Assembly: GCA_964351485.1 (NCBI GenBank)
Contig: CAYGOX010000004.1
Location: 1 to 35,759, forward strand
DNA: 35,759 bases
From: an uncultured Halioglobus sp.
Lineage (GTDB): Bacteria; Pseudomonadota; Gammaproteobacteria; Pseudomonadales; Halieaceae
Direction of reading: 5' to 3'
Part shown: piece by piece, positions 8,774 to 35,646 of the stretch
Layout: each line of letters opens with the position of its first letter
How positions within the stretch are numbered: the stretch's first letter is position 1
Notes under the pieces: model-generated
Told to the model about the DNA's origin: nothing
Databases searched by the model: none
The model's input: only the letters and a program-made list of their open reading frames with translations
Made by a program: the position numbers and the translations under genes

Positions 8774-10378
8774 GTGAACTCTCCTGTCGTCAACGATGGT
8801 CCCTCTGTGCTGCATATCGCTTACCTGGTGTGCATCGTGGTGTTCCTGTGCGCTATCGGTTACCACCACTTTCAACTGGTGACCTACCCGCTGCCACTGA
8901 GCTATAACGAAGCCTCACTGGTCAGCGTCACGCAATATCTCGTGCAGGGCAACAATCCTTATGCCATTGAAGCCCAGCCCGCTAACACCAGCGTGTACCC
9001 GATCCTGTACAACCTGATCGCTGCCACATTAGCCACGTGGTTCGACAACACGCTCGTTCTGCACCGGGCGGTAACGGCTGCGGCACTGGCCGGCTGCGCA
9101 ATACTTTTCTTTCGCGTAACTGCAGCGGCGTGCCACAGTCGACTGGACGCGCTTGCGACGACCGCCCTGCTCTACTGCGGATTGATGGTGTTCTCGACGC
9201 CTCTGGCCAGCCCCAATGGCGTAGGCCTGGTGATATTTTTGGGAGCACTCTACCTGCCACTGTTGGACGGATTTTCGAGGCGCAGCCTGCTGATCGCCCT
9301 GCTCCTGGGCATTATGGCTTTCCATGCGAAGCAGTATTTTGTGGCTGCGCTGGGCTTTGTCGCCCTTTTGCTCTTTCTCAAACAGTCCAAGACGCTGGGC
9401 GTAGGGTTTGGCCTGGCAGGACTCATAGGCTCGCTGGTGCTGCTGGCAGTGATTTTGCCGGGCTCACCGTACTACTTAGACGCATTGGTTTTCGCCGTCA
9501 GTGGCGCGTCCGAGCTGGCCTCGTCAAATACGCACATGTGGCAGCAATGGTTTGAGTACCTCAAGGTGCTTGGTCCGATCATCCTGGCCCTGGTTGCGGG
9601 CCTCGCCGCGCGCCGGTTTCTTCCCGATACCATTGAGCAAACGTCAGGCGAGCGGACGCTCTTGTCTGTATCGTCGCCACACACGCCGCTCTTTACGCGC
9701 GGGGTCAACGCCCATGTTGTATTTCTTGTCTGCTCGGCGCTGATTTTTACGGTCAGTCTCGGGCGCAATCCGGGCAATGAACTGACCTATCTTTTCCAAC
9801 TTGTCTCGCCTTTCCTGCTGACACTGGCGGCTGTAGCCATTACCCGAAGCCGCTGGCAGTGGCCTTTGCGACTGCTGGTGCTGATCGCTTTCTACACCCA
9901 CTACCAGGCGCTCTCGCATGACTTTGGCGTGCGCAATCTGGATCAATGGCAGAAACTTGAGCAGGCGGTAAGTGAAGCAGAGACAATCTATTCGACGCCT
10001 GTCGCACTCGAATTGATCGCCAACAAAAACGGGGAAGTCTTCAACAACGGGCATACCCTCTATTTCAAGTTGGCCGGCCGTAAACCGGCGCTTCTGGTAC
10101 GTGACGATCCGACACAGCGCGCTGACCATCTCTGGCGCCAATGGGTAAGCGGAATCCACGACAAGGTAAGAACAAGAGCATTTGACGCAATAATCATCGA
10201 CGCCTGGACGCCGCTGCCAGACCTTGATCTGGGCACGGATCGCGCCGTCAAGGGTAGCTCCCTGCTTCGCAAATACTATCGCCCCAGAGAAACGCTGGAT
10301 ATTTCACTGGCAAACCGTCCCGGCGGCGGCAACTACAAGGTGCAAATCTGGGAACCACGCCTCAATCACCGCGATTAA
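8774..10378 (+). CDS. Polytopic GT-C-fold membrane glycosyltransferase (ArnT/PMT-like), putative third component of a GtrABC-type system
   Basis: About 11-12 TM segments, first-loop acidic motif LSYNEAS..NPY...VYP.LY, conserved AKQY and a soluble C-terminal domain. Lies near gtrA-like and gtrB-like genes. Confidence 0.65.
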   Translation: MNSPVVNDGPSVLHIAYLVCIVVFLCAIGYHHFQLVTYPLPLSYNEASLVSVTQYLVQGNNPYAIEAQPANTSVYPILYNLIAATLATWFDNTLVLHRAVTAAALAGCAILFFRVTAAACHSRLDALATTALLYCGLMVFSTPLASPNGVGLVIFLGALYLPLLDGFSRRSLLIALLLGIMAFHAKQYFVAALGFVALLLFLKQSKTLGVGFGLAGLIGSLVLLAVILPGSPYYLDALVFAVSGASELASSNTHMWQQWFEYLKVLGPIILALVAGLAARRFLPDTIEQTSGERTLLSVSSPHTPLFTRGVNAHVVFLVCSALIFTVSLGRNPGNELTYLFQLVSPFLLTLAAVAITRSRWQWPLRLLVLIAFYTHYQALSHDFGVRNLDQWQKLEQAVSEAETIYSTPVALELIANKNGEVFNNGHTLYFKLAGRKPALLVRDDPTQRADHLWRQWVSGIHDKVRTRAFDAIIIDAWTPLPDLDLGTDRAVKGSSLLRKYYRPRETLDISLANRPGGGNYKVQIWEPRLNHRD

Positions 10379-10457: not shown

Positions 10458-11270
10458 ATGGCTGATCTCGACACAAAAACGATTGCGGACTTTGACGACC
10501 AGTGGACACGCTACAGCGATAACGAAGGCTGGTACGGTTCCCTGGCACTGTTCCAGGACATCATCGACCCACTGATCGACGCTGACGAACTTGAAAACAA
10601 GCGCGTGGTGGATATCGGCAGCGGTACCGGACGCATCGTCGGCATGCTGCTTGAGGCGGGGGTCAGTCATGTCGATGCAGTGGAGCCGGCAGAAGGGGCA
10701 TTCCGGAAACTACTCGAAAATGTCGCGGCGATGGAGCGCTCCGACGCCGTGCACTGTATCAATGCCCGTGGCGATGCCTGGGAAATCGCCGAGCCCGCGG
10801 ACTATGTTTTTTCAATCGGCGTTATCCAGTTCATCCCCGATCCGGATCCCACGGTGAAGCGTTGTTTCGACTCACTGAAGCCCGGCGGGGAGATATTCTT
10901 CTGGTTGTACAGCCACGAGGGCAACGAGCTCTACCTGAGTTTCATCAAGCCGATACGTGCCATTACCACCCGCCTGCCGCATATCGCACTGGTCAGCTTC
11001 AACTGGCTGTTGTATCTCATCCTTGTTGTTTATCGAACACTTAGCCTGGTTCTACCACTCCCCCTGAAGCGGTATCTCAACCAGGTCTGGTGGCCCATGA
11101 CGCCGCGCAAGCGCCGCCTTGTCATTTACGACCAGCTCAACCCGAGCTACGCCAAGTATCACAAACGCCATGAAGCGATAGAGCTGCTGGAAAAGGCCGG
11201 ATTTGTCGACGTGAAAGCTCACCACCGCCACGGCTATAGCTGGTGTGTGTGGGGCCGCAAGCCCGACTGA
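10458..11270 (+). CDS. Class I SAM-dependent methyltransferase
   Basis: VVDIGSGTGR motif I, AVEP, DYVFSIGVIQF and LKPGG. Confidence 0.92.
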   Translation: MADLDTKTIADFDDQWTRYSDNEGWYGSLALFQDIIDPLIDADELENKRVVDIGSGTGRIVGMLLEAGVSHVDAVEPAEGAFRKLLENVAAMERSDAVHCINARGDAWEIAEPADYVFSIGVIQFIPDPDPTVKRCFDSLKPGGEIFFWLYSHEGNELYLSFIKPIRAITTRLPHIALVSFNWLLYLILVVYRTLSLVLPLPLKRYLNQVWWPMTPRKRRLVIYDQLNPSYAKYHKRHEAIELLEKAGFVDVKAHHRHGYSWCVWGRKPD

Positions 11271-11273
11271 CTT

Positions 11274-12002
11274 TTACCGAACGGCGAATACCGCGTAAGC
11301 ACTGCTGCCGGGAAGACTGCGCGGCAACAGGCTGTGCTCCAGCTTGAAAACCGCGGCGATCAGGTGGTGCAGCCAGCGCATCGATTTTGACGGCGGTATT
11401 ATCTGCGTCCCGCGATCACGCCCTATCAGGCCCAGCAATCGCGCCGGCAGGTAAAGTGACTGAAAAAAGTATCCCGCTCTGACAGACTCAAGACCTGAAG
11501 CCAGACCAACCTGCCGCAGCTCATCCAGCGAGTAGCGCCGCTGGTGACCGTAGAACTCGTCATAGTTCGACCACAGCTCTTGCCGCGCTGGTACCGTCAC
11601 GATGACAGTGGCAAGCTGTGGATAATGTTGCAGCAGATCGCGCAGAAACTCCGCCGGCTCCGGCAGGTGTTCAATCACGTCCAGCAGTAACAGGGTTCGG
11701 GCAGCATCACGCTCGGCTTGTGGCAACTCGCGCGCATCCACACCGGCATGGACACGGTCGGAAACCTGGGGCAGTGGCGAGACCGGCGCCAGCTCCACTC
11801 CGCGGATATCCACTCCCGCACCGGCCAGCGACAACACCTCGACACCGCGACCACAACCCACTTCGACAACCGGGCTTTCTATATCGGTGTATCGCGCAAG
11901 CAGTCGTAGAATGATCCAGCTGCGCGCACGGTTCCACCAGTGATGCTCAATGCCGTCAGGATAGGCGAGCGCGTACTGGTTGTCGGAGAATTCTGTAGGC
12001 AC
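11274..12002 (-). CDS. Class I SAM-dependent methyltransferase (type commonly adjacent to GT2 genes)
   Basis: EHHWWNRAR, VVEVGCGRG, LLDVIEHL and TVPARQELWSNYDEFYGHQRRYS. Start placed at GTG 12002. Confidence 0.9.
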   Translation of the reverse strand: MPTEFSDNQYALAYPDGIEHHWWNRARSWIILRLLARYTDIESPVVEVGCGRGVEVLSLAGAGVDIRGVELAPVSPLPQVSDRVHAGVDARELPQAERDAARTLLLLDVIEHLPEPAEFLRDLLQHYPQLATVIVTVPARQELWSNYDEFYGHQRRYSLDELRQVGLASGLESVRAGYFFQSLYLPARLLGLIGRDRGTQIIPPSKSMRWLHHLIAAVFKLEHSLLPRSLPGSSAYAVFAVR

Positions 12003-12033
12003 AACTGCTACGCTCGTGCGACGCGGCGACGGA

Positions 12034-13014
12034 TTAGTCGCTGTCCCCGGCCGGTTCGTGAGAAATGATTTCCTCCACCTGGTACAGCGGTCGGTTCTTG
12101 ACCTCCATGTAGGCCTTGCCGATGTATTCACCAGCAATGCCGATGGCAAGTAACTGCAAACCGCCAAGCAGGTAGATGGGAATGACGGTCGAGGCCCAGC
12201 CGTCAATAAGCTCCGAACTTCCGGTGATCTTTGCCCACAGGGCCCAGCCGCTCAGCCCCAGCGACACGAGAAAGACAAGCGCGCCAACCAGGGCAATAAA
12301 ACGCAGCGGGGCCATCGAAAACGAGGTGATGCCCTGCGTCGAGAGGCTGATCATGGCTCGCAGGTTGTACTTGGTCTCACCGGCCTGCCTTGCACCGCGT
12401 GCGTAGTACACCCGGTCAGTTTGCAAGCCCAGCAGGGGCACGATGCCGCGCAGGTATATATTGGTTTCGCGATACTGGCCCAGCAGGCGCACAGCCTTGG
12501 CACTCATCAGCCGGAAATCCGCGTGATTGGGAATCGAGTCAATACCAAACCGGGCCGCGATCCAGTAGTGAATGCCGGCGGTCCAGCGCTTGAACCAACC
12601 ATCGGTATGGCGATCGTCCCGCACTCCATAGACAATTTCAGCACCTGCATGGAACTTGTCCACCATCTCGTCGATGGCATCGATGTCATCCTGCAGGTCG
12701 GCGTCCATCGAGATCAGTGCATCACCCTCTGCCTTCATCATGCCCGCATACAGTGCATACTGATGACCGTGGTTGCGCGTCAGCTTGATACCCATGAAAC
12801 AGGGGGCCTCCGCGACCAGTGACTGGATTATCGACCAGGTCGCGTCTGTGCTCCCGTCGTCGACAAACCAGACTCTGGAACGCGCACTGACGGCGCCGCG
12901 CGCCGCCAGGCTCTGGAGTTTGGCACGCAACTGCCGGGCCGTCTCAAGAAGTACAAGCTCCTCGTTGAAACACGGCACAACAATCCCGATTTCTGGTGCG
13001 TCAGTCTCAGTCAT
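12034..13014 (-). CDS. GT2 polyprenyl-phosphate glycosyltransferase (GtrB/ArnC/YkoT-like)
   Basis: IVVPCFNEE, FVDDGSTDATW, LTRNHGHQYAL, MDADLQDD, ADFRLMS, RQAGETKY, two C-terminal TM helices and GEYIGKAYMEVKNRPLY. Confidence 0.95.
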   Translation of the reverse strand: MTETDAPEIGIVVPCFNEELVLLETARQLRAKLQSLAARGAVSARSRVWFVDDGSTDATWSIIQSLVAEAPCFMGIKLTRNHGHQYALYAGMMKAEGDALISMDADLQDDIDAIDEMVDKFHAGAEIVYGVRDDRHTDGWFKRWTAGIHYWIAARFGIDSIPNHADFRLMSAKAVRLLGQYRETNIYLRGIVPLLGLQTDRVYYARGARQAGETKYNLRAMISLSTQGITSFSMAPLRFIALVGALVFLVSLGLSGWALWAKITGSSELIDGWASTVIPIYLLGGLQLLAIGIAGEYIGKAYMEVKNRPLYQVEEIISHEPAGDSD

Positions 13015-13019
13015 TGCCT

Positions 13020-13811
13020 CTACCCGGGCGGGTGCTCCTTCCCCGCAGCGCGTTCGTCCGCGGCAGAAGATCTTCGCCAGCTATTCTGCAGCCTCTTCTT
13101 GGCCACGGCAATCTGCGTACGCTGCCGAACAGGCAGTGCCCGGATCAGGCGCTTGCGCCACTGGTAGAGCCGGGGCGACTTGTCCGGGGGAACGGTGCCG
13201 GGCGGAACGAGGTCGTTCGCGAGCGCATCGTGGACCTGCGGTAGCACATCGCGACGAACATAGACAAATGTATTGAAGCGATACCAGGGCATTACCGATT
13301 TGTCTTCGAGAATATGGTGTCGAAGTGCATCGTACATCGCGTATCCCCGGGACTCGAACAGCGCCTGCCAGTAGGAGTACGGCTGTTCATTAACGTGATT
13401 CTCGCCGCCCTGACCGGGCGCCGCCGCAGAAAACAAAACCACGTCGGCACTGCGACACAGGTTTTCCACGAATCCCGCAGCAAACTCCGCCGGCAGATGT
13501 TCAGCCACCTCCAGCGACTGGGCTATGTCAAAACGCTCACCCAGATCAAAATCCGCGGTCAGGTCACGGGCTCTGAATTCGTCGGGGTCGATCAACAACG
13601 AAGCGCTCTGTACGTAAGCACCATCCAGGCCTGTCACGGACACGCCCGCTTTTTTCCATACCGAAAGCCAGGCGCCCGCGCCGCAACCCACGTCAAGCAC
13701 GGTGGTAACGCGCAGCGGGAGCACCTGCAACAACGTGGGCACAACGACCTCAGCCGACGCCAGGGAGCCCTGGTTGATGTAGCGATAGAACGCTTCGTTA
13801 TAGGTATACAT
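13020..13811 (-). CDS. Class I SAM-dependent methyltransferase
   Basis: VLDVGCGAGAWL, FDIAQSLEVAEHL and FSAAAPGQGGENHVNEQPYSYW. Confidence 0.92.
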   Translation of the reverse strand: MYTYNEAFYRYINQGSLASAEVVVPTLLQVLPLRVTTVLDVGCGAGAWLSVWKKAGVSVTGLDGAYVQSASLLIDPDEFRARDLTADFDLGERFDIAQSLEVAEHLPAEFAAGFVENLCRSADVVLFSAAAPGQGGENHVNEQPYSYWQALFESRGYAMYDALRHHILEDKSVMPWYRFNTFVYVRRDVLPQVHDALANDLVPPGTVPPDKSPRLYQWRKRLIRALPVRQRTQIAVAKKRLQNSWRRSSAADERAAGKEHPPG

Positions 13812-23900: not shown

Positions 23901-24155
23901 GTGCCGGAAACGGTGTTACCGCCGGGCCAATGGAACAAGGTCAGGATTCGCGTGAAGAACAACCAGATCGAACACTGGCTCAACGGCGAGCGCGTGGTAC
24001 AGATCGAGCGCGGCGGCGAGCGCTGGAACACACTGGTGGCGGGCAGCAAGTACATCGACATGCCGCGCTTCGGTACCGCCGATGAAGGCTACATCGTACT
24101 GCAGGATCACGGCGACGCGGTGTGGTACCGCAATATCCGGATTCGTCGCCTATAG
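20967..24155 (+). CDS. Membrane-anchored or exported multidomain protein: c-type cytochrome + sugar/sorbosone-dehydrogenase-like beta-propeller + C-terminal DUF1080 (3-keto-disaccharide hydrolase) domain
   Basis: N-terminal hydrophobic helix; SDCLGCH (21819-21833) with IAGPAW and WGPVPMPPH; propeller motifs GLHEPLGL, SGFRTPNGI and TDNQGDWLPASKL; DUF1080 motifs LFDGKTLSGW, NSGIFY, GPEMQVLD and LQDHGDAVWYRNIRIRRL. Confidence 0.88.
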   Translation: MKKLLAALLALPLVLALLLAIGVGIGLQQGLVSRSDLAFLYDLGKRSGIPAVIAVIRAEVYGVDTSASSDPSYGRVQVEGRGHAPWVIRGNLDERPRMIKFALAPGLWAAYAVESQSLYQVWEGDVLFEGAAYNYQHGPQPASSGRWFLRDAEGARWTILQAGVEYPAEVRYLGHEYSAGRSRAAMRFTLSANAITLELTEKPDIEDKSPSRALVREFERHDTFSDAHAVFYTGTGERHVAQGRLLFALDNPTPIPERIATGAGKSAPAQDIVSRGEAVISASDCLGCHGEQHRIAGPAWTQISGKFRGRVQPEVVDVLARKVIDGAQGTWGPVPMPPHPDMSLEDAQAAVTYVLSVGEPETGLDGPVDANGEPYPSTYSYDVLPRLTSLHPSFEIDNLAPPGFEPRVGGMGFLSDGTLVLASWDIDGAVYLVDPEAPESARVRRIAEGLHEPLGLATVNDRIFVLQKQEITELVDRDGDGITDVYRAHSYDWTANPNFHSFAFGLLHRDDALYFLLSICVLPGGASCPEQEATQGKLLRASLDDGRVEVVASGFRTPNGIDVGPDGAVYVTDNQGDWLPASKLVRIEPGAFYGSRAVDGPAVATRAESPPVAWLPQDEVGNSPTQPLLLSEGPYAGQMIHGDVYNGGIKRVFIEEVAGQLQGAAFHFTGGLQAPVNRLLRGADGAIYVGEAGSRPNWGEYGKPWYGLERLRYVGNNAFEIRAVRLQGDGLEIELTQPLSPDITPTPEDVRIEQWFYHPNEQYGGPKYDVTPLAADAVGLNEDGTRLRIAVEGLKAGYVAYIALDDRLRSHTGDPLWTAEAWYTINAMPADATAAVNTVSQATCEDDSELLFDGKTLSGWRNYGSESTEVRKWQVDNGVLALKQESRFPWWDMIKSALFGGPSGDLIYYREKFRDFELSLEWKISENGNSGIFYLVADEEEKMPWETGPEMQVLDNDGHLDGRVTTHRAGDLYDLVSAVPETVLPPGQWNKVRIRVKNNQIEHWLNGERVVQIERGGERWNTLVAGSKYIDMPRFGTADEGYIVLQDHGDAVWYRNIRIRRL

Positions 24156-24767
24156 GCTGGTCATCAAAAAGCCCGTGAGCGCCGCGTTGTTGGGCGCGAG
24201 CCGATCCGAGACCGTATCGCGAATGTCTTTCAGCAGGCGCTGGTAGCCGCGGTAGAAGGCCCAGGTTGGCTGCGGGCGGTATTGCAAGTCGTCCACCTCC
24301 AGTGCGGCGAGAATCCCCTTGGCTGTCGTCGGTTTGACAAACGCCTCGCGCTGCGGGAACACGTAGAAGGGAATCACCGATACGACCGACCATTTGGCGA
24401 CACCGTGCGGCTGCAACATACCGACCAGTTCTTCGAAACCGCGCTGCCTGGCACGACCATACAGACGCAGCTCCAGCGCCTGGGCAAACGCCGCCTTTTC
24501 GTCACTGTTGAGGCATTGGACAAAATCACGGAACTTCGGTTTTTCAAAGCGCGACACCATGGAGGATCGGCTGACAATTTTCAATGCAGTGTCGACCACG
24601 TGTACCGGCCGGTGGAACTTTTCGCGCGCCAGTTCTCGGCGCGCGAACTCTGTCAGCTTGTCGACGTTGTGCTTTTTCTTGATGGACGCGAGACCCGGAT
24701 CATCAAAGCCTGCGGGGTACTGGCCGAGGAATCGGGCCTCGGCCTCGAGGAGTCTGGTACGGTTCAC
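24150..24767 (-). CDS. Hypothetical protein (205 aa)
   Basis: Coding-like ORF with conserved-looking blocks YPAGFDDP, KKHNVDKL, SMVSRFEKPKFRD, AKWSVVS, FVKPTTAK, YRPQPTWAFY and NNAALTGFLM. Its stop overlaps the convergent gene's stop (CTATAG). Confidence 0.8.
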   Translation of the reverse strand: MNRTRLLEAEARFLGQYPAGFDDPGLASIKKKHNVDKLTEFARRELAREKFHRPVHVVDTALKIVSRSSMVSRFEKPKFRDFVQCLNSDEKAAFAQALELRLYGRARQRGFEELVGMLQPHGVAKWSVVSVIPFYVFPQREAFVKPTTAKGILAALEVDDLQYRPQPTWAFYRGYQRLLKDIRDTVSDRLAPNNAALTGFLMTSL

Positions 24768-27390: not shown

Positions 27391-29025
27391 CTATAGTTTC
27401 TTCGCACGTTCCCGTAGCAGGAACTTTTGAATTTTCCCTGTTGAGGTCTTGGGCAATTCATCAAAGACGATGGTCCGCGGCATCTTGAAGCCGGCCAGGT
27501 GCTCACGGCAAAACGCCAGTAGTGCATCTTCGGTGACTGTCGCACCGTCAACCCGTTCGACAAATGCGCAGGGGCTCTCCCCCCACTTTTCGTCGGGCCG
27601 GGCCACGACAGCCGCCGCCAGCACCTCGGGATGGCGGTGCAATGCGCCCTCGACCTCGATGGAGGAGATATTCTCTCCGCCGGAAATAATAATGTCCTTG
27701 GAGCGATCCTTGATCTCGATGTAACTATCCGGGTGCTTCACCGCAAGATCGCCCGAATGAAACCAGCCGCCCGCGAAGGCCTCGGCTGTCGCCTCGGGGT
27801 TTTTCAGGTAGCCCTTCATCACGACGTGACCGCGAAACATCACCTCGCCAATGGTCTGCCCGTCGGCCGGCACTGGCGTCAGGGTCGCTGGATCCAGTAC
27901 GTCCAGGCCACCCAGCACAGGGTACGGTACCCCCTGACGCGCCTTCATCGCGGCGCGCTCCCCGGCGGGCAGCGCGTTCCAGTCCTCCTGCCAGGCGCAG
28001 TACACACAGGGCCCGTAGACTTCGGTAAGACCGTAGGTATGAGTGATGCTCGTGCCCAGTGCCTCCATCGCGGCAATGACCGCCGCCGGGGGCGCGGCGC
28101 CGGCCGTCATCACCTGCAAACCGGGCGGCAACTTCTCGCGCAGCGATGCCGGGGCATTGGCCATCATCGACAGGACAATTGGCGCACCGCAGAGGTGGGT
28201 GACGCCCTCGGCAACCACCGCCTCGATAATCGCTTCTGGCGCCACATCGCGCAGACAAACGTGCGTCCCGGCCTTGAGTGTGATCGTCCAGGGGAAACAC
28301 CATCCGTTGCAGTGGAACATGGGCAGGGTCCACAGGTAGACGGGGTCGCCCTGCAACTGCCAGGCCTCGGCGTTGCCGATCGCGTTGAGGTAGGCACCGC
28401 GATGGTGATACACCACGCCCTTGGGGTTGCCCGTGGTACCGGACGTATAGTTCAGTGCCAGCGATTGCCAGTCGTCGGCAATCGCTCGTACCGGGGGTCC
28501 GTCTCCCGCCGATTCAAGCAGTGCCTCGTACGTCATCGAACCGATGTGTCTGTCACGGGGACCGAGGTGATCGTCCAGGTCGATGACAACGGGCTTGCGC
28601 CCGCTGATCTCCAGTGCCTCGCGGGCAACATCGGCAAACTGTGCATCGGCCAACAGCACATCGCATTCACCGTGGTCGAGAATATACGCGATGGTCGCGG
28701 CCTCGAGGCGGATGTTGATGCTGTTCAGCACGGCACCGCAAAGCGGCACGCCGAAGTGGGCCTCCAGGTGCGCCGGCACATTCGGTGCGATGATCGAAAC
28801 GGTACTGCCCGGCCCCACGCCCAGATCGGCAAGCGCACTCGCAAGGGCCTCGCAGCGGCGCAGGAGCGTGGCGTAATCGTAACGAAGATCGCCGTGCACG
28901 ACCGCGGTCTTCTGCGGATAGATTCTCGCTGTATGGTGCAAAAAATGTACCGGCGTCAACGCCTCGAAATTCGCCGGCTGCCGATCGAGGCCCGCGTGAA
29001 AAGGGCTGTTGTTCTGTTGGTTCAT
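27391..29025 (-). CDS. AMP-forming acyl-CoA synthetase (short/medium-chain type)
   Basis: ANFEALTP, LNYTSGTTGNPKGVVYHHRGAYL, LPMFHCNGW, TYGLTEVYGP, GWFHSGDLA, DRSKDIIISGGENISSIEVE and LPKTSTGKIQK. Confidence 0.96.
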   Translation of the reverse strand: MNQQNNSPFHAGLDRQPANFEALTPVHFLHHTARIYPQKTAVVHGDLRYDYATLLRRCEALASALADLGVGPGSTVSIIAPNVPAHLEAHFGVPLCGAVLNSINIRLEAATIAYILDHGECDVLLADAQFADVAREALEISGRKPVVIDLDDHLGPRDRHIGSMTYEALLESAGDGPPVRAIADDWQSLALNYTSGTTGNPKGVVYHHRGAYLNAIGNAEAWQLQGDPVYLWTLPMFHCNGWCFPWTITLKAGTHVCLRDVAPEAIIEAVVAEGVTHLCGAPIVLSMMANAPASLREKLPPGLQVMTAGAAPPAAVIAAMEALGTSITHTYGLTEVYGPCVYCAWQEDWNALPAGERAAMKARQGVPYPVLGGLDVLDPATLTPVPADGQTIGEVMFRGHVVMKGYLKNPEATAEAFAGGWFHSGDLAVKHPDSYIEIKDRSKDIIISGGENISSIEVEGALHRHPEVLAAAVVARPDEKWGESPCAFVERVDGATVTEDALLAFCREHLAGFKMPRTIVFDELPKTSTGKIQKFLLRERAKKL

Positions 29026-30488
29026 CGACTGTCTCCGGTCCGGTTGTTCTCTAGCTCCTGCAAAAATTCCGCTGCGAACCGCTGCGCCTGCACCAGCACA
29101 TTGACCAGCGGCGAGATATCGTCGGGTGCGGCGCGAACCCGCCGCAAAGCCCGACCCAGTTCACCGCGAAGCCCAAGCGTGCGCGGAAACAACAACGGCA
29201 TTTCGCCCTCGCGCTCCAGTGCGCGATTGATAAAGGTCAGGGCCACCCGGGCATTGCCGTCGGCAAAGGGATGCAGATCGAGCAGTGTCAGCAATTGTAC
29301 TGCGGCACCAGACAGACCCGGCGGCAACACGGGATAGAGTTGTCCGATCACGTGCTGCACAGTGGCACTGGCAGATCGCGGTTCGACACGCCGCAGACGG
29401 GGATTGTGCGGCGACCAGTTTTGCGTGTACTTGAAGTGGCCGGGCGAAAAACCGTCAATGCGCTCGCAGCAGATTGCGTGAATACTGCGCCACTGCGCTT
29501 CGACCTGGTGAGGCGCCGCAGTTCCTTCCGCCTCGCTCCGATGCGCGATCACCGCATCGCGAACATTGAGCGACTCCCTGAGTTCTGCATCATCGTGCGC
29601 GGATTGCGCCTCCACGTCCAGCGCCAGGTACTCGTCGACGGTGTTCACCAGGGGAATCATGAACACCCCCTCGATCAGCGGCCAGTCAGGTGGCAGTGAT
29701 GGAGCCGCAAGCGATGGTCGATCCGCCAGCCGTCGGGCACTGGCCGCGTACCGGGCGAAGGCCGCGATAGCCAACTCATCCACTTCCTGTACCGACTCGG
29801 GCAGTGCCTGCAGGGCCTGCTCCAGTGCGCCGGTGCCCGCCCCGTCGACCACTGCCTGTAGCGCTCTCGCCAACCGGTGGTACTCGCCCAGCGCCGCCTG
29901 CGCGTTGGTAACTTCATTCTGTTCAACCGGCGGCAGGCGAGACGCGGCCAGTTCCGACAGCGATGCCGCCGCTGCGTCGAAGTCCCCGCTTTCCAAAAGA
30001 AGTGTCGCCCGATTAACGCGCGCCAGGGAAAAAGCCGCATCGCGCTGAATCGCCTCGTCGTACAGGCAAAACGCGGTGGCCGCTTCGCGGCGTGAGCGCA
30101 GGTGGCAGGCCAGCTTGTTGAGCGCCTGCGGGCTGCGCTCCAGACTGACAGCCTCCTCGTAGGCGCGAGCCGCCGCGTCCGCCTGACCGAGCAGGCGAAG
30201 CACATCGCCCTGCAGCATGGGAATCGTTGCCAGCGTCGGGTTGAGTACGCGGGCCCGCTTCAATGCTGTTTCTGCTGCATCCAGTTCACCCAATTGCAAC
30301 AGCACCGACCCCAGGTTGACCCACCCCTCGAAACGTTTCGGCTGCAACCGGGTGGCGGCAGCGAATGCGCGGCGAGCAACGTCCAACTGCCGGTGCCGGA
30401 ACGCCCGTTGACCGGCCTGCATTTTTTCAAGCCAGGCCTGCGACTTTTTGGATGTCGCCCCGGCCCCTCGCCTGGTCTCGCTTGGCAT
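29022..30488 (-). CDS. TPR-repeat + Fic-domain protein (paralog 1)
   Basis: About 4-5 TPR-like repeats (GWVNLGSVL, GDVLRLLG, ALNKLAC, RVNRATL), IHAICC, PGHFKYTQ and Fic loop LHPFADGNARVAL (His at 29271-29273). Start placed at MPSETR (30488) with AGGAG upstream; its stop overlaps the ligase start. Confidence 0.9.
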   Translation of the reverse strand: MPSETRRGAGATSKKSQAWLEKMQAGQRAFRHRQLDVARRAFAAATRLQPKRFEGWVNLGSVLLQLGELDAAETALKRARVLNPTLATIPMLQGDVLRLLGQADAAARAYEEAVSLERSPQALNKLACHLRSRREAATAFCLYDEAIQRDAAFSLARVNRATLLLESGDFDAAAASLSELAASRLPPVEQNEVTNAQAALGEYHRLARALQAVVDGAGTGALEQALQALPESVQEVDELAIAAFARYAASARRLADRPSLAAPSLPPDWPLIEGVFMIPLVNTVDEYLALDVEAQSAHDDAELRESLNVRDAVIAHRSEAEGTAAPHQVEAQWRSIHAICCERIDGFSPGHFKYTQNWSPHNPRLRRVEPRSASATVQHVIGQLYPVLPPGLSGAAVQLLTLLDLHPFADGNARVALTFINRALEREGEMPLLFPRTLGLRGELGRALRRVRAAPDDISPLVNVLVQAQRFAAEFLQELENNRTGDSR

Positions 30489-30630
30489 TGCGATACTGTC
30501 TCCTGATTGGACGGCGCTGCGCGCCACCGTGGGCGCGAGCTTAACGAAATTCGACCCGGGGCGCGAACCGCTGGACAACCGCCGTAGGCACCATCAGACT
30601 AACCCGGCACACCAGTGAGGAACCAGGACC

Positions 30631-32085
30631 GTGACCACGACCCAGCCCGCCAGCAATCCAGCACAGACTTCTCCCGACCCACAATGGTTATCGCTGATGC
30701 GCAGGGGCCAGGACGCGTTCAAACAAGGGAAAATGCACGACGCCATCCTGGCTTTCAAGGCCGCCACGGACACCGAGCCCACACAGACCGCCGGCTGGAT
30801 CAACCTCGGCTCCGCACTGCTTGAACACGGCCAGGCGGAATCCGCTGTGCGGGCAATTCGCAACGCAATCTCTCTCAACCCGGCGCAGATGCTGCCGCAC
30901 ATGATGATGGGAGACGCCCTGCGCCAGCTGGGCCGGCCCCGGCAGGCGCTGGAAGCCTACCAGCAGGCGGTCGAACGCAAGCGGCACCCGGCGGCGCTGA
31001 ACAAGCTGGCCTGCGCGCTGCGCAGCAAAGGGCGGGTGCGCGAGGCCGAGGCATTGCTCCGCGAGGCGATGGAGAGCGAACCGCGCTTCACCCTGCCCAG
31101 GGTCAACCTGGCGACCATGAAACTGGAAACCGATGCGCTGGACGAAGCGCAATCCCTGCTGCAGGCCCTGTCAGAAACCGCACTTCAGCCTGCCGAGCAG
31201 GAAGAGGTGCGCGCGGCAGGCATCGCGCTCACGCTGCGCCGGCAACTGGGCCAGCCGATTGCAGACCTTCTCCAGAGCGCAGATTTCAAAGCTTTCGAAC
31301 GCGCGCTGGAGCATTCACCAGAGGAAACTTTCGGCACTGATAAATCGATATGGGAACAGCTCGCACGCTACGGTGAACATGCCAACGCGCTTCAGGTGAC
31401 GCCGGTTGACCTCACGCATCCGCTGCCCGAGCACTGGCCCCGCATCGAGGCCGTGTATACGATTCCGTTGGCGAACGATCCCGCGCACTGCCAGGAACTG
31501 GCTAGCTCGCTGCAGTCCTCATCCGACCACGACGCCAACCTCGCAAAAGCACGGGGTGTCAGCAACGCTGTGAGCGCGGCCAGGCAAACGCTGCCGGCCG
31601 AGCCCGCGGGTGCAGACATGGAAGCGAGACTGCGGTACTGGCATGGCCTGGCCTGCGAATTCGATCCCGGTGTGAAACCCGGCCATTTCAAATACACCCA
31701 GTTCTGGGTGCCCAACGAACCCACGCGACGCCGTGGCGAACCCATACTCTGCGGCGCGACGTTCCGAGCCTTTTGTGACGACATCCTGTCGCAGGCAGCC
31801 CCGGGCTATCCGCGCGCGGCCCTGGTCATGATGGCCATAGCCGACATACACCCCTTCGCCGACGGCAACACGCGCGTCGCGTTAACCTGGATGAACCGCG
31901 AGCTGGAAGCAGCCGGGCTGCAGCCGGCCATTTTCCCTGCCGGTGACGGGATGCGCGACACATTGAAAAAGGTGATGTCGCAGGTCAGGGAGCGCAACGG
32001 CGACCTGACCCCGCTGGTTGACCATGTCGTGTGTGGACAGCAGGCTGGCCTGGAACTGCTCGCAGCGCTGCCAGCGGCGCATTAG
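30631..32085 (+). CDS. TPR-repeat + Fic-domain protein (paralog 2)
   Basis: TPR-like repeats (GWINLGSAL, GDALRQLG, ALNKLAC, RVNLATM), WHGLAC, PGHFKYTQ and Fic loop IHPFADGNTRVAL (His at 31849-31851). GTG start with AGGA upstream. Confidence 0.9.
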   Translation: MTTTQPASNPAQTSPDPQWLSLMRRGQDAFKQGKMHDAILAFKAATDTEPTQTAGWINLGSALLEHGQAESAVRAIRNAISLNPAQMLPHMMMGDALRQLGRPRQALEAYQQAVERKRHPAALNKLACALRSKGRVREAEALLREAMESEPRFTLPRVNLATMKLETDALDEAQSLLQALSETALQPAEQEEVRAAGIALTLRRQLGQPIADLLQSADFKAFERALEHSPEETFGTDKSIWEQLARYGEHANALQVTPVDLTHPLPEHWPRIEAVYTIPLANDPAHCQELASSLQSSSDHDANLAKARGVSNAVSAARQTLPAEPAGADMEARLRYWHGLACEFDPGVKPGHFKYTQFWVPNEPTRRRGEPILCGATFRAFCDDILSQAAPGYPRAALVMMAIADIHPFADGNTRVALTWMNRELEAAGLQPAIFPAGDGMRDTLKKVMSQVRERNGDLTPLVDHVVCGQQAGLELLAALPAAH

Positions 32086-33107
32086 TCGCGCGGAAAATAC
32101 GCCAGCGGGTGGGTCGTGGTAATCCGCAGTTGCACGCGGTCTCCCGGCTCACACTGCAGTTCGTGACTGCATCGCACCTTGACCTGTTCGCCGGCCTCCG
32201 TGGTGACCGCGTACAGCCTTGCACTGCCCTCGTACCGCGCCCAGGAGACCACCCCATTACCCGTGTCGCTGGCAGCCAGCGAAAGGTCGTCGGGGCGCAG
32301 CAACAGGCTCACCTCGCCCGCGGCACCGGCAACAGGCACACCCGGCGCCGTGCCCAGTGAGGTTTCCACCGCATCCGCGTGGTTGCCCACCCGACCATTG
32401 ACGAAGCTCGCTTCACCCAGAAACCGGGCGACAAACGCGTTTGCGGGGCAGCTGTAACAGTTTTCCGGTGTGTCGACCTGCTCCAGCCGACCGTTTCGCA
32501 ATACGCCCACCCTGTCACCTACCGACAGCGCCTCATCCTGGTCGTGCGTCACCCAGATTGCCGGCACATTGGCCGCCTTGAGGGCATTGCGGATTTCCCA
32601 GCGGACATCGTCCTTGAGCGCGGCATCGAGATTGGACAACGGTTCATCCAGCAGGACACAGGCCGGGCGATGGGCCAACGTCCGGGCCAGCGCAACACGC
32701 TGCTTCTGCCCACCCGACAGCGTCGCCGGGCGCGCATGCCGGTGCGCCTCCAGGCCCAGCCGCTCAATCCAGTAGTCGGCCTGCGCGGTGTCGGCCAGCC
32801 GGAAACGGATGTTCTGCTCTACATCGAGATGGGGAAAGAGAGCAAAATCCTGGAACACCATGCCCACGTTGCGCTTCTCCGGGGGCACGGGATGTTCGGG
32901 CGTCGCACGCCAGTTCCCCAGCTGTACAGAACCCGAAGCTATCGGTACAAGCCCGGCCAGTGCCTGCAATACTGTAGTCTTGCCACATCCGGTCGGGCCG
33001 ACCAGCATGAGAATTTCGTTCTCCGCGAGCGTAAACGCCACGTCCGACACCACTGTCGTGGCGCCGTATTTTACGGACAGCCCAGTGACGATCAGTTCTC
33101 GACTCAT
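32082..33107 (-). CDS. Fe3+ ABC transporter ATP-binding subunit (FbpC/SfuC-like)
   Basis: Walker A GPTGCGKTT, VFQDFALFPHL, LSGGQKQRVALAR, LLDEPLSNLD, VTHDQDEA and a C-terminal TOBE-like region. Confidence 0.93.
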   Translation of the reverse strand: MSRELIVTGLSVKYGATTVVSDVAFTLAENEILMLVGPTGCGKTTVLQALAGLVPIASGSVQLGNWRATPEHPVPPEKRNVGMVFQDFALFPHLDVEQNIRFRLADTAQADYWIERLGLEAHRHARPATLSGGQKQRVALARTLAHRPACVLLDEPLSNLDAALKDDVRWEIRNALKAANVPAIWVTHDQDEALSVGDRVGVLRNGRLEQVDTPENCYSCPANAFVARFLGEASFVNGRVGNHADAVETSLGTAPGVPVAGAAGEVSLLLRPDDLSLAASDTGNGVVSWARYEGSARLYAVTTEAGEQVKVRCSHELQCEPGDRVQLRITTTHPLAYFPRD

Positions 33108-34618
33108 GCGGAGGGTTCACTCTCTTGCAGGCCCCAACGCTCACCGCTGAACATCAGTGCCAGGGCCACCGCGGAAATGGCAACCAACAGAAGCCCGGGC
33201 ACCGCAGCCTGGCCGAAGTAACCCGCTTCATACACGCGCCACAGGTACGTGGCCAGCGTGTCGAAGTCGGTGGGACCGAGTAAAAGGGTTGCGGGTAGTT
33301 CTCGCATGGCTTCCAAAAATACCAGGGCTGCACCGGCTACTATACCGCGAAGCGTGAGCGGCAGGGTGACTCTCCGAAAGGCTTCGGCGGGCGATGCACC
33401 CAGCACGCGGGCCGCACTGACCAGTGAATCGTCGAGGTTTTCACTGGCCGAGCGCACCGATCCCACCGCCAGCGGCAGGAACCGCAGGACATAGGCGGCC
33501 ACGAGCAACGCCAGTGTCTGGTAGAGCACCGGTAACTGCAGGCCCACGTACACCAGCGCCGTGCCCATCACGATGCCGGGCACCCCGAAACCGAGATACG
33601 TGACCCGCTCCATGAAGCGGCCGGTACGACCGCGCAGCGCGGCCCGGGCCACCGGGATGGCCAGCACCACCGCAACCAGCGCCGCGAGCAGGGAGGCGTT
33701 GGCGGAATTGAGCGCAAGCTGCCAGTCAAAGTCCTGGGCCCCGTCGCGCCACAGCCACAGGCCAAACACCGCCAGGGGCAGCACAATCGCCGCGACGATA
33801 ATCGGCAGGACGCCCGCGAGCATCAGCGCACCCTGGCGGTGGGTGGGCCACAGCACCAGCGGCCGTCCCGGCCGTTCGGCAGAGCCGCCGACCCGCGATT
33901 CGAGAAACAGGAAAAGCCCGACAATGATCAACAGCTGCAGCGACAACATCGCCGCCTGACTCAGGCCGAACGCGTTGTACTCGACGTAGATAACCCGCGT
34001 GAAGGTATCCACATTCATAATGGCCGGCGTACCGAAATCCGACAGCGCGTACAACCCGGCGAGCAGGGCGCCGGCCGCGATACCGTTGGTGACACGCGGC
34101 AGCACGATGCGCCACAGGCTTTCAAACAGCGATAGTCCGAGCGTACGCGCAGCATGCACGTGACTGGCGTCGAGGCTGCACAGCGAAGCGCGCGTGGTCA
34201 GCAGCACAAAGGGATAGGTGTACAGCGCCATGACCAGCGACGCGCCGGCCAGGCCCTCCATCGACGGTGACGGCAGGCCGATCACGGTATCGAGTTCGCC
34301 TCCGGGACCGAACGCGGCGTAAAAGGTGAAAGCGCCGATGTAACTGGGCATGGCCAGCGGCGCGGCGAGCAAGACCAGCCACAGGCGCCGCAGCGGTAAT
34401 GCAACATAGGCAGTCAGCAGCGCCAGCGGCACCCCGATCAGTACGGCACCCACTACCGTGAACAACACCAGCAGCAGGGTGTTGAGCAGCACATCGAGAT
34501 TGCGACTGTCCAGTACCAACGGTTCCTGCAACGCCAGCGCCACCAGCACCACCAGCGGCAACAGTGCCGCGACCGCGATGGGCAGGCTCGCTGCGTAGGC
34601 TGTCGGGAACTGCTTCAT
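33104..34618 (-). CDS. Fe3+ ABC transporter permease (FbpB/SfuB-like, duplicated TM domain)
   Basis: About 12 TM helices with two EAA-type loops (HAARTLG, SAARVLG), LSDFG and MRELPATLLLGP. Confidence 0.93.
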   Translation of the reverse strand: MKQFPTAYAASLPIAVAALLPLVVLVALALQEPLVLDSRNLDVLLNTLLLVLFTVVGAVLIGVPLALLTAYVALPLRRLWLVLLAAPLAMPSYIGAFTFYAAFGPGGELDTVIGLPSPSMEGLAGASLVMALYTYPFVLLTTRASLCSLDASHVHAARTLGLSLFESLWRIVLPRVTNGIAAGALLAGLYALSDFGTPAIMNVDTFTRVIYVEYNAFGLSQAAMLSLQLLIIVGLFLFLESRVGGSAERPGRPLVLWPTHRQGALMLAGVLPIIVAAIVLPLAVFGLWLWRDGAQDFDWQLALNSANASLLAALVAVVLAIPVARAALRGRTGRFMERVTYLGFGVPGIVMGTALVYVGLQLPVLYQTLALLVAAYVLRFLPLAVGSVRSASENLDDSLVSAARVLGASPAEAFRRVTLPLTLRGIVAGAALVFLEAMRELPATLLLGPTDFDTLATYLWRVYEAGYFGQAAVPGLLLVAISAVALALMFSGERWGLQESEPSA

Positions 34619-35646
34619 AGCACGCCGGCGGCGCGCATCAGGTCCAGCGTGGGGCGCAGGTCGGCCAGGCGCGTGAGGTCCACCCGGGGCGGGTTGATGG
34701 CGTCCAGCGCGGGTATCCCCGGCGGAGTTGCCACGCCGTCCACCAGCGGGATTTCATAGGCCTCGCTGGCCAGGTAGGACTGCACCTCCCGCGTCAGCAG
34801 GTAGCGGATGAAATTGACCGCGGTCGCCCCGGGCCGCAGGGCGACAACGCCCGATGCATTGACCAGACAACCCGCGTCATTATTGGTAAACGCGAGCTCA
34901 ATCGCGGCGTCCGGACGGCCGGACCTGAGCCGCAGCGTGTAGTAATGATTGGCAAGACCGATATCGACCGCGCCGCGCTCAACCGCCATTACAACGCCCA
35001 GCTCACCGGCGTACCGGGTGGCGCGCGACTTCACGCCGCGCAGCCAGTCGGACGTCGCCTTGTCACCTTCCAGCAGCCGCATGGCGGTGACAAACGACTG
35101 GAACGAGGCGTAGGCCGGCGCCCAGCCAATGGACAGATCACTGTCCGCCAGATCCATCACGCTGTCGGGAATTTTGTCGGCACTGAGCCGCTCGGTGTTG
35201 TACGGCAGCGTACGGATACGCCCGGTCACAGGGACCCAGTTCCCGAAGCGAAACTGGGGCTGGAGCTGGTCGACAAGGTCTGAGGGTAAGGGCTGCGCCA
35301 GACCGGCGCCGGTAACCTGCCCCACGGCTGCTGAATCCACCGCCCAGAACAGGTCTGCCCGGTGCACACCGGCTTTTGCCTCGGCCAGGATCGCGTTGGT
35401 AAGCGCGGCGTTGGAGCCGCGGCGGATGCGCAGGTCGAAATCCGGGTTGCGATCGACGATGGCGTCCAGCACATCCTCGTACAGGCCGCCCTCACCGCGA
35501 CCGAGATAGAGCGTTAGCGATCCCTCCAGCGGCGGTAACTGCGTGACTGAGAGCGCAGGCGCCGGTGCCGCGCTCCAGCCGAGGGAACTGGACAGCGGGA
35601 GCGCGCCCGCAATACCCAGGCCCTGTAAAAATGTTCTGCGGTGCAA
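34615..35646 (-). CDS. Fe3+ ABC transporter substrate-binding protein (FbpA/FutA-like) with Tat signal
   Basis: Twin-arginine signal HRRTFL, ADLFWAVD, GRIRTLPYN, SFQSFVTAM and the Tyr iron-ligand motif LANHYY. TTG start. Confidence 0.9.
   Translation of the reverse strand: MHRRTFLQGLGIAGALPLSSSLGWSAAPAPALSVTQLPPLEGSLTLYLGRGEGGLYEDVLDAIVDRNPDFDLRIRRGSNAALTNAILAEAKAGVHRADLFWAVDSAAVGQVTGAGLAQPLPSDLVDQLQPQFRFGNWVPVTGRIRTLPYNTERLSADKIPDSVMDLADSDLSIGWAPAYASFQSFVTAMRLLEGDKATSDWLRGVKSRATRYAGELGVVMAVERGAVDIGLANHYYTLRLRSGRPDAAIELAFTNNDAGCLVNASGVVALRPGATAVNFIRYLLTREVQSYLASEAYEIPLVDGVATPPGIPALDAINPPRVDLTRLADLRPTLDLMRAAGVL

What the first reader, a model, noticed from the sequence alone, without database searches (positions are those of the whole stretch)
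29022..32085. Head-to-head pair of full-length paralogous TPR-Fic proteins (FICD/HYPE-like architecture)
Seen in sequence: two ~485-aa genes transcribed divergently from a ~140-bp spacer are colinear over their whole length. They share GW[VI]NLGS, ALNKLACxLRS, RVN[RL]AT, WPxIE[GA]VxxIPL, PGHFKYTQxWxP and HPFADGN[AT]RVALT. Residual inverted DNA similarity remains: GCGCTGAACAAGCTGGCCTGC near 30994 matches the reverse complement near 30105-30125 at 20/21 positions, consistent with an old inverted duplication in which both copies stayed intact. Established: Fic domains transfer AMP or related groups to proteins, and N-terminal TPRs plus a Fic domain is the architecture of metazoan FICD/HYPE, whose TPRs engage the Hsp70 BiP. 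Typical bacterial Fic genes are FicTA/Doc-Phd toxins, Fic-HTH proteins or secreted effectors. Here there is no small antitoxin ORF, HTH, signal peptide or mobile element. Inference: an undescribed two-enzyme post-translational-modification module, such as a heterodimer, a writer/eraser pair, or a TPR-sensor/Fic-effector stress or anti-phage system.
Basis: partly seen in the sequence, partly recalled or inferred. Interest (0 to 1): 0.85.

Follow-up and report, generated by a model that had tools for sequence, protein, structure and literature searches.

The report
TPR-Fic enzymes linked to CDP-alcohol synthases
These two intact marine-bacterial genes encode repeat-armed Fic enzymes that lack the residues typical Fic enzymes use to grip ATP's end and to self-inhibit, and because about half of their relatives sit just behind genes resembling CDP-alcohol-making enzymes, they likely attach a phospho-alcohol tag rather than AMP to proteins; their head-to-head layout is likely incidental.

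Summary
In detail: two intact TPR-Fic genes, 39% identical, lie head-to-head across a 142-bp spacer. The interpretation changes. The two genes belong to different subclades, so they are not a local inverted duplication. The divergent layout was seen only in this genome. The family occurs in 22 of 48 genus genomes, as singletons, scattered copies or tandem pairs. Both proteins lack the inhibitory glutamate that FICD-type erasing needs and the second motif arginine that binds ATP's gamma-phosphate; that arginine survives in 5 of 62 clade members versus 46 of 48 basal relatives. In 20 of 41 loci of this clade a cytidylyltransferase-like gene lies just upstream, from three families (IspD/TarI-like, often with a RuBisCO-like gene; LicC-like; TagD-like); 0 of 7 arginine-retaining loci have one. 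Best reading (0.45): AnkX-like transfer of a phospho-alcohol from a CDP-alcohol onto TPR-selected proteins. Against it: this pair has no such neighbour (candidate donor genes lie elsewhere in the genome), 10 of 22 carrier genomes lack both donor types searched, and no AnkX CMP domain is evident. No activity was tested. No description was found in ten paper searches. New variant of a known kind; interest 0.62.

The parts
29022..30488 (-). TPR-Fic gene A (P0001, 488 aa): about five TPR hairpins, linker helix, class II-type Fic core; stop overlaps the start of the downstream acyl-CoA synthetase by 4 nt
   Evidence: keeps 59 of 62 columns conserved in the family
30631..32085 (+). TPR-Fic gene B (P0002, 484 aa); likely orthologue of the single gene of the closest sampled species G067
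   Evidence: keeps 55 of 56 conserved columns
30489..30630 (.). 142-bp divergent spacer with a ribosome-binding-like site for each gene; no sigma-70-like promoter match
29238..29273 (-). Fic motif of gene A (His406): second Gly replaced by Ala, second Arg by Leu
31849..31884 (+). Fic motif of gene B (His407): second Gly replaced by Thr, second Arg by Leu
29640..29675 (-). Degenerate inhibitory-helix segment of gene A (residues 272-283): no Ser/Thr-xxx-Glu-Gly/Asn motif
31444..31479 (+). Degenerate inhibitory-helix segment of gene B; the modelled helix ends at residue 277, before the conserved Pro279
30994..31014 (+). One arm of the 20/21 inverted match (other arm 30105-30125); codes for the invariant LNKL motif of a TPR
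27391..29025 (-). Flanking acyl-CoA synthetase; end of a block syntenic with G067, where no TPR-Fic gene lies beside it
32082..35646 (-). Flanking ABC transporter genes (ATPase, permease, binding protein), convergent with gene B; permease not found in G067 with this query

Best explanation
The two genes are old paralogues of a TPR-Fic clade that lacks the inhibitory glutamate and the gamma-phosphate-binding arginine of AMP-transferring Fic enzymes, and they likely act, as AnkX does, by taking a CDP-alcohol made by a partner cytidylyltransferase and transferring its phospho-alcohol onto proteins likely selected by their TPR repeats. Shown here: the architecture, the residue losses, the gene neighbourhoods of relatives and the separate ancestry of the two copies. 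Inferred: the donor is a CDP-alcohol (it has no gamma-phosphate, so the second arginine would be dispensable); His, Asp, the anion nest and the first Arg would run the usual Fic chemistry; the RuBisCO-like enzyme would supply the phosphorylated precursor for the IspD-like enzyme; in G000 the donor would come in trans from the IspD-like + RuBisCO-like cassette on contig C23 or the LicC-like gene on C19. The two copies would have different targets or donors, and their head-to-head position likely results from a lineage-specific rearrangement.
For: Second Arg kept in 5 of 62 clade members, 46 of 48 basal TPR-Fic and 38 of 40 non-TPR sister proteins with a readable motif; inhibitory motif in 0 of 63, 0 of 52 and 40 of 42. 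His kept in 58 of 62 and Asp/Glu in 60 of 62. The second Arg binds the gamma-phosphate (PMC4342408; PMC4454073). Doc lacks it and binds ATP inverted; AnkX binds CDP-choline inverted (PMC4177925). A cytidylyltransferase-like gene lies co-oriented within three genes upstream in 20 of 41 merged loci (23 of 46 rows), versus 0 of 10 rows (7 loci) that keep the Arg, and at most 0.7% of genes in G000. Three partner families: IspD/TarI-like, LicC/PntC-like and TagD-like. The IspD-like - RuBisCO-like - TPR-Fic operon recurs at different sites, in a second genus (G242) and in a compost metagenome. IspD-like stays adjacent where the RuBisCO-like gene is missing (L056, L132, L134, L136). IspD-like neighbours occur on the earliest branches of the clade. 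IspD-like (E below 1e-30) and RuBisCO-like genes are in the same 8 of 48 genus genomes, all TPR-Fic carriers, including all 7 with adjacent pairs, over about four lineages of a gyrB tree.
Against: The pair in this window has no cytidylyltransferase neighbour. G000's IspD-like and RuBisCO-like genes are a divergent subtype (37-41% identity to the operon-linked ones) never seen beside a TPR-Fic gene. 21 of 41 loci lack the neighbour. 10 of 22 carrier genomes have neither the IspD-like nor the LicC-like type (TagD-like not searched genus-wide; four of the ten are 83% complete or less). G067 (95% complete), which holds gene B's orthologue, is among them. Four single-copy genomes have lost the catalytic His. 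AnkX's inverted binding uses a CMP domain that is not evident here, and the fold is closer to FICD (Z 18.0) than to AnkX (Z 10.8). Loci are related, so the Fisher values overstate. Neighbour labels were entered by hand from mechanical ORF maps. Known Arg-less Fic groups have been read as possibly inactive.
Confidence: 0.45

Rival explanations
1. Both are uninhibited nucleotidyl transferases that pass AMP (or CMP) to TPR-bound targets; the TPR arm replaces the inhibitory helix as regulator.
For: His, Asp, Asn and first Arg are intact. Closest folds are FICD and class II AMPylases. Basal TPR-Fic proteins keep the full motif (46 of 48). CMP transfer from a CDP-alcohol would fit the same neighbours.
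Against: Loss of the gamma-phosphate Arg and the Gly-to-Ala/Thr change in both proteins; the Arg positions ATP for productive transfer.
Confidence: 0.2
2. They are pseudo-enzymes: TPR adaptors or nucleotide sensors that bind or regulate partner enzymes (cytidylyltransferase, RuBisCO-like protein, GT41) without covalent transfer.
For: His is lost in the only copy of four genomes. Motif erosion is clade-wide. A non-catalytic Fic role is reported for BepC (PMC8097203).
Against: His is kept in 58 of 62, Asp/Glu in 60 of 62, and Asn and the first Arg are invariant in alignments A4 and A5. The four His-less genomes lack the IspD-like cassette, which fits decay after donor loss; one of them (G061) keeps a LicC-like gene.
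Confidence: 0.22
3. First reader's module: an obligate heterodimer or writer/eraser pair born by inverted duplication.
For: Adjacent pairs occur in 7 of 22 carrier genomes and arose more than once. Multi-copy clusters also occur among basal members (G611, G653).
Against: The copies are not sisters. The layout is unique to G000 among the loci seen. Singletons occur in complete genomes. Neither copy has the glutamate needed for Fic deAMPylation.
Confidence: 0.06
4. An anti-phage TPR-sensor / Fic-effector system.
For: Patchy presence (22 of 48). Weak PADLOC SoFic match for gene A (E 1e-5). One relative lies near Wadjet JetD and a helicase (L068). DUF7275, a mostly phage family, flanks four Arg-retaining members.
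Against: The commonest site is a housekeeping locus beside aceF and miaE, with metabolic neighbours. No defence genes among the 31 window proteins scanned with Pfam. No close relative in viral contigs or plasmids.
Confidence: 0.07

Closest known systems
FICD/HYPE, FIC-1 (metazoan TPR-Fic AMPylase/deAMPylase of BiP)
   Same: N-terminal TPRs, helical linker, class II-type Fic core; best structural match (Z 21.4, rmsd 2.9 A over 211 residues).
   Different: About five TPR hairpins versus two; different TPR placement (rmsd about 14 A over the whole); no membrane anchor; no Glu234 or Arg374 equivalents. Much closer in sequence to a bacterial non-TPR Fic family (profile E to 1e-58) than to FICD (about 1e-7), so the architecture is likely convergent.
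AnkX (Legionella phosphocholine transferase)
   Same: Fic chemistry on a CDP-alcohol donor is the proposed mode of action (PMC4177925). Lack of the second Arg in AnkX is recalled, not shown by a call.
   Different: No CMP domain or ankyrin repeats evident; fold Z only 10.8; chromosomal, no secretion signal seen, with its own candidate donor-making genes.
Doc kinases and Arg-less 'GNTR' Fic proteins of clade F3 (PMC4454073)
   Same: Second Arg absent; gene B has Thr at the second Gly position, like the F3 subgroup.
   Different: No Lys at that position as in Doc; large TPR protein with no antitoxin; whether gene B's clade is that F3 subgroup was not tested.
Bacterial ~490-aa class II 'Fic family protein' without TPR (e.g. 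P0046, P0091)
   Same: Nearest sister group; profile-profile probability 99.8% over 278 columns.
   Different: Keeps the inhibitory motif (40 of 42) and second Arg (38 of 40); no TPR.
GT41 TPR O-glycosyltransferases (OGT/SPINDLY-like)
   Same: TPR arm plus transferase using an NDP-activated donor; lie next to TPR-Fic genes in G611, G621, G653, L132, L134.
   Different: Unrelated catalytic domain; no GT41 match found in G000, which is 79% complete.

Membership tests
Fic/Fido domain superfamily | Helical Fic core with HxFx(D/E)GNxR loop | tested here: met
   Pfam Fic over cut-off; fold matches
Canonical AMPylating Fic | Full motif with second Gly and second Arg | tested here: not met
   Ala/Thr and Leu in the two proteins
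Class II Fic / FICD | N-terminal inhibitory helix with (S/T)xxxE(G/N) | tested here: not met
   0 of 63 clade members; no acidic residue in either alignment register.
FICD/HYPE | TPR repeats before the Fic domain | tested here: met
FICD/HYPE | N-terminal membrane anchor | tested here: not met
   hydropathy scan
FICD/HYPE | AMPylation/deAMPylation of an Hsp70 | not testable with these tools
   needs an assay
AnkX-type phosphocholine transferases | CMP-binding domain and Fic insert | tested here: inconclusive
   AnkX aligns over the Fic core only (Z 10.8); the model is accounted for by TPR, linker and Fic; no AnkX CMP-domain profile was run
AnkX-type phosphocholine transferases | Uses a CDP-alcohol donor | not testable with these tools
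   suggested by gene neighbourhood only
Doc kinases | Lys in place of the second Gly; Phd antitoxin upstream | tested here: not met
   DOC_P1 score far below cut-off
FicTA class I toxin-antitoxin | Small antitoxin gene with the inhibitory motif | tested here: not met
   ORF list of 40 aa or more around the pair; shorter ORFs not examined
SoFic anti-phage system | Match to the SoFic model; protection from phage | tested here: inconclusive
   weak partial match for gene A only; protection not testable

The most novel reading that the evidence does not exclude
A self-contained bacterial protein-modification pathway: a RuBisCO-like enzyme makes an unusual phosphorylated polyol, a cytidylyltransferase activates it, and a TPR-Fic enzyme that evolved from an AMPylase writes it onto cytoplasmic proteins or onto O-glycans placed by neighbouring GT41 enzymes. 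It would be a new post-translational mark, a housekeeping counterpart of AnkX chemistry, and a new role for a RuBisCO-like protein; duplicated copies would widen the target or donor range.
Probability: 0.3. Interest if true: 0.87.

Novelty: new variant of a known kind. Interest (0 to 1): 0.62.

Why it matters
Among the Fic enzymes covered in the papers read, AnkX, a secreted pathogen effector, is the one that uses a CDP-alcohol. A free-living clade encoded with its own candidate donor-making enzymes would show that this chemistry evolved again from an AMPylase, in traceable steps: loss of the inhibitory Glu, then loss of the gamma-phosphate Arg with recruitment of cytidylyltransferases. The compact three-gene operon can be tested directly by mass spectrometry. 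It could also give a function to an unassigned RuBisCO-like clade. The head-to-head arrangement itself is of little interest.

Tried and rejected
Complex prediction of gene A with gene B gave no answer (score 0.00); this is no evidence either way. The genome-contig scan was swamped by the generic Fic pattern and gave only distant Fic proteins. Viral contigs: none with the clade-specific patterns, only distant Fic hits with the broader profile (those 80 loci were not examined further). Plasmids: no match. Class and phylum samples: 6 of 399 and 1 of 400 other genomes matched, at scores like those of the non-TPR sister family; they were not opened, and G915 was not scored. Expression: the RNA run X7 has flat depth like the DNA runs, so it shows nothing about transcription. 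No sigma-70 promoter match. The RNA-level and DnaK ideas were not modelled. An idea that G006's RuBisCO-like gene lies by the orthologue of the window's acyl-CoA synthetase failed (29% identity). An early guess of an LPS island at the aceF site was wrong: the neighbours are miaE, fabV and glucosylglycerate genes. The Atlas returned generic Fic clusters. Five look-ups of earlier scan findings returned nothing. The AnkX structure paper was not held and a search for its motif found no paper. Rows dropped before neighbour counts: L110, L119, L120, L121, L126, L128 (same as genome loci), L118 and L124 (duplicates), L112, L130, L135, L096 (cut off or broken), and six rows with unknown upstream context.
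Full report
Observation. The window holds gene A (30488-29022, minus strand, 488 aa) and gene B (30631-32085, plus strand, 484 aa), 142 bp apart. They are 39% identical over 453 aa. Both have TPR matches and a Fic match just above Pfam's cut-off. They are the only two proteins with a Fic-type motif pattern in the 79%-complete genome. A model of a near-identical database copy of gene B (P0003) is confident (pLDDT 91.6) and shows ten N-terminal helices (five TPR hairpins), a long linker helix and a Fic core. The core matches FICD best (Z 21.4, rmsd 2.9 A over 211 residues), while the whole-chain rmsd is about 14 A. Genes A and B keep 59 of 62 and 55 of 56 family-conserved columns, so neither is decaying. 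The 20/21 inverted DNA match is real but codes for an invariant motif; fourfold sites are near saturation, 34 of 80 versus 30% expected. Public contigs cover the spacer in overlapping pieces.

Host and distribution. The tool groups G067 in the same genus; its family member matches a database protein labelled Halioglobus sp., so the host is likely Halioglobus (Halieaceae; inference). The family is in 22 of 48 genus genomes. Outside the genus, 5 of 252 other family genomes matched, two of them clade members. In an order sample 18 of 400 other genomes matched, of which two outside the family score at clade level. A profile search of 1.84 billion representatives gave 76 proteins at E below 1e-30. 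No close relative was found in viral contigs or plasmids.

The pair. Six other genomes have adjacent copies, all head-to-tail (G003, G006, G026, G028, G030, G035). Others have unlinked copies or one copy, including the single-contig genome G071. In a quick maximum-likelihood tree of 49 full-length proteins (careful search unfinished) gene B falls in a clade with G067's gene (support 100), gene A groups with a G003 copy (95), and the G030/G035 pair is a separate duplication. A FastTree tree of the C-terminal part also separates A from B, with weaker placement of A. G067, sister to G000 in the gyrB protein tree (0.997; not in the nucleotide tree), is syntenic left of the pair but has another gene beside the acyl-CoA synthetase, and keeps its TPR-Fic elsewhere. 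The head-to-head layout is therefore likely a lineage-specific juxtaposition of two old paralogues. Pairs did arise more than once, which may mean that two specificities are useful.

Active site. Three groups form a gradient (proteins of 400 aa or more, nine near-duplicates removed). A non-TPR sister family keeps the inhibitory motif (40 of 42) and the second Arg (38 of 40 readable). Basal TPR-Fic proteins lose the inhibitory motif (0 of 52) but keep the Arg (46 of 48). The clade of this pair loses both (0 of 63; Arg in 5 of 62) while keeping His (58) and Asp/Glu (60). In genes A and B the second Gly is also Ala or Thr. The register of the inhibitory Glu is uncertain by one residue, and neither register gives an acidic residue. 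In FICD the second Arg binds the gamma-phosphate (PMC4342408, passages), and the Glu is needed for deAMPylation in FICD and EfFIC (PMC6408439, passages; PMC8373988, passages; PMC8097203, passages). A FICD-type eraser role is thus unlikely for either copy. Doc lacks the second Arg (PMC4454073, passages and section 6); Doc and AnkX bind their donors inverted, AnkX with help from a CMP domain (PMC4177925, parts 1-2 of 3; PMC5033356, passages). That AnkX also lacks this Arg is recalled, not shown by a call.

Neighbourhoods. The commonest genus site is the 3' end of aceE-aceF near miaE and fabV. An operon of IspD-like gene, RuBisCO-like gene and TPR-Fic, often with overlapping stop and start, recurs in G026, G028, G003 (two loci), G014 (across a contig break), G242 of another genus and five further metagenome loci (L111, L115, L117, L123, L125). 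IspD-like alone precedes the gene in G006, L136, L132 and L134, the last two flanked by GT41 TPR glycosyltransferases. A LicC/PntC-like gene takes that place in G012, G031 and G035, and three genes upstream in G003 C37. A TagD-like gene does so in G474 and L122. By their closest solved relatives these three families are CDP-alcohol or related CMP-phosphonate synthases; TagD's fold differs from the other two (own knowledge). Counted by hand-entered labels, 23 of 46 Arg-less rows have such a gene and 0 of 10 Arg-retaining rows do; merged, 20 of 41 loci (three with the motif cut off) against 0 of 7. The chance rate in G000 is at most 0.7%. Arg-retaining members lie instead beside GT41 (G611, G621, G653) or DUF7275 (four loci). 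Genome-wide, the IspD-like and RuBisCO-like genes occur in the same 8 of 48 genomes, all carriers, including all 7 with adjacent pairs; none of the 26 non-carriers has them. Kin are not independent, but the seven of these eight that are in the gyrB tree (G014 is not) span about four lineages. G000 has an IspD-like + RuBisCO-like cassette on C23 and a LicC-like gene on C19, neither beside the pair.

Mechanism. Best reading (0.45): the clade switched from ATP to a CDP-alcohol donor, which has no gamma-phosphate, and transfers the phospho-alcohol to a Ser/Thr/Tyr (or a glycan) of a TPR-bound target, releasing CMP. Every step of that sentence is inferred. Against it: no neighbour for this pair; G000's cassette is a divergent subtype (37-41%); 10 of 22 carriers lack both donor types searched, among them G067; four single-copy genomes lost His; no CMP domain is evident and AnkX is a weaker fold match (Z 10.8 versus 18.0). 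Rivals: pseudo-enzyme adaptor (0.22), uninhibited AMP/CMP transferase (0.2), anti-phage system (0.07), obligate pair (0.06).

Comparison and novelty. It works, on this reading, like AnkX and is built like FICD, but is a member of neither by the features tested. Ten paper searches in an open-access library found no account of bacterial TPR-Fic proteins or of this operon; PMC2686095 (passages) mentions TPR only for eukaryotic Fic proteins. Subscription papers and supplements were not seen and could hold a domain-architecture listing. Database names are generic. Verdict: new variant of a known kind, interest 0.62. The value lies in the family and its operon, not in the head-to-head layout.

Noticed in passing
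G000:C23 (L082:7931-9934); also L089, L090: IspD-like + RuBisCO-like (type IV-like, KDDE kept, Lys of the KP motif replaced) two-gene cassette of a second subtype, found only in genomes that also have TPR-Fic pairs; function unassigned.
   Followed up: partly
G000:C19 (L083:10442-12926): panE-like, NeuD-like acetyltransferase and LicC-like nucleotidyltransferase cassette; the same cassette precedes a TPR-Fic gene in G012 and G031 and stands without one in G064 and G061.
   Followed up: partly
L068, L102, L105, L108: DUF7275, a mostly phage family, is adjacent to TPR-Fic genes in four loci, all of which keep the second Arg, two of them nested inside the Arg-less clade; possible partner or eraser.
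   Followed up: partly
L102, L103, L104, L132, L134: TPR-Fic genes cluster with GT41 TPR O-glycosyltransferases; G611 has three TPR-Fic genes in 10 kb.
   Followed up: partly
L066, L067, L069, L073: Single-copy members with the catalytic His replaced by Asn or Leu, beside aceF; three directly follow glucosylglycerate synthesis genes.
   Followed up: partly
P0046, P0091 and about 40 relatives: Widespread ~490-aa class II Fic family with an N-terminal region that has no Pfam match; sister group of the TPR-Fic proteins.
   Followed up: no
L054, L100, L106, L083: IS200-like (Y1) transposase genes lie next to several TPR-Fic genes or the LicC-like cassette.
   Followed up: no
window 10458-13811: Cluster of three methyltransferases and a family 2 glycosyltransferase; 8774-10378 (534 aa) and 24150-24767 (205 aa, conserved in G067) have no family match.
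   Followed up: no
L091:3252-4604: RuBisCO-like gene of G006 with an internal TGA in the match.
   Followed up: no
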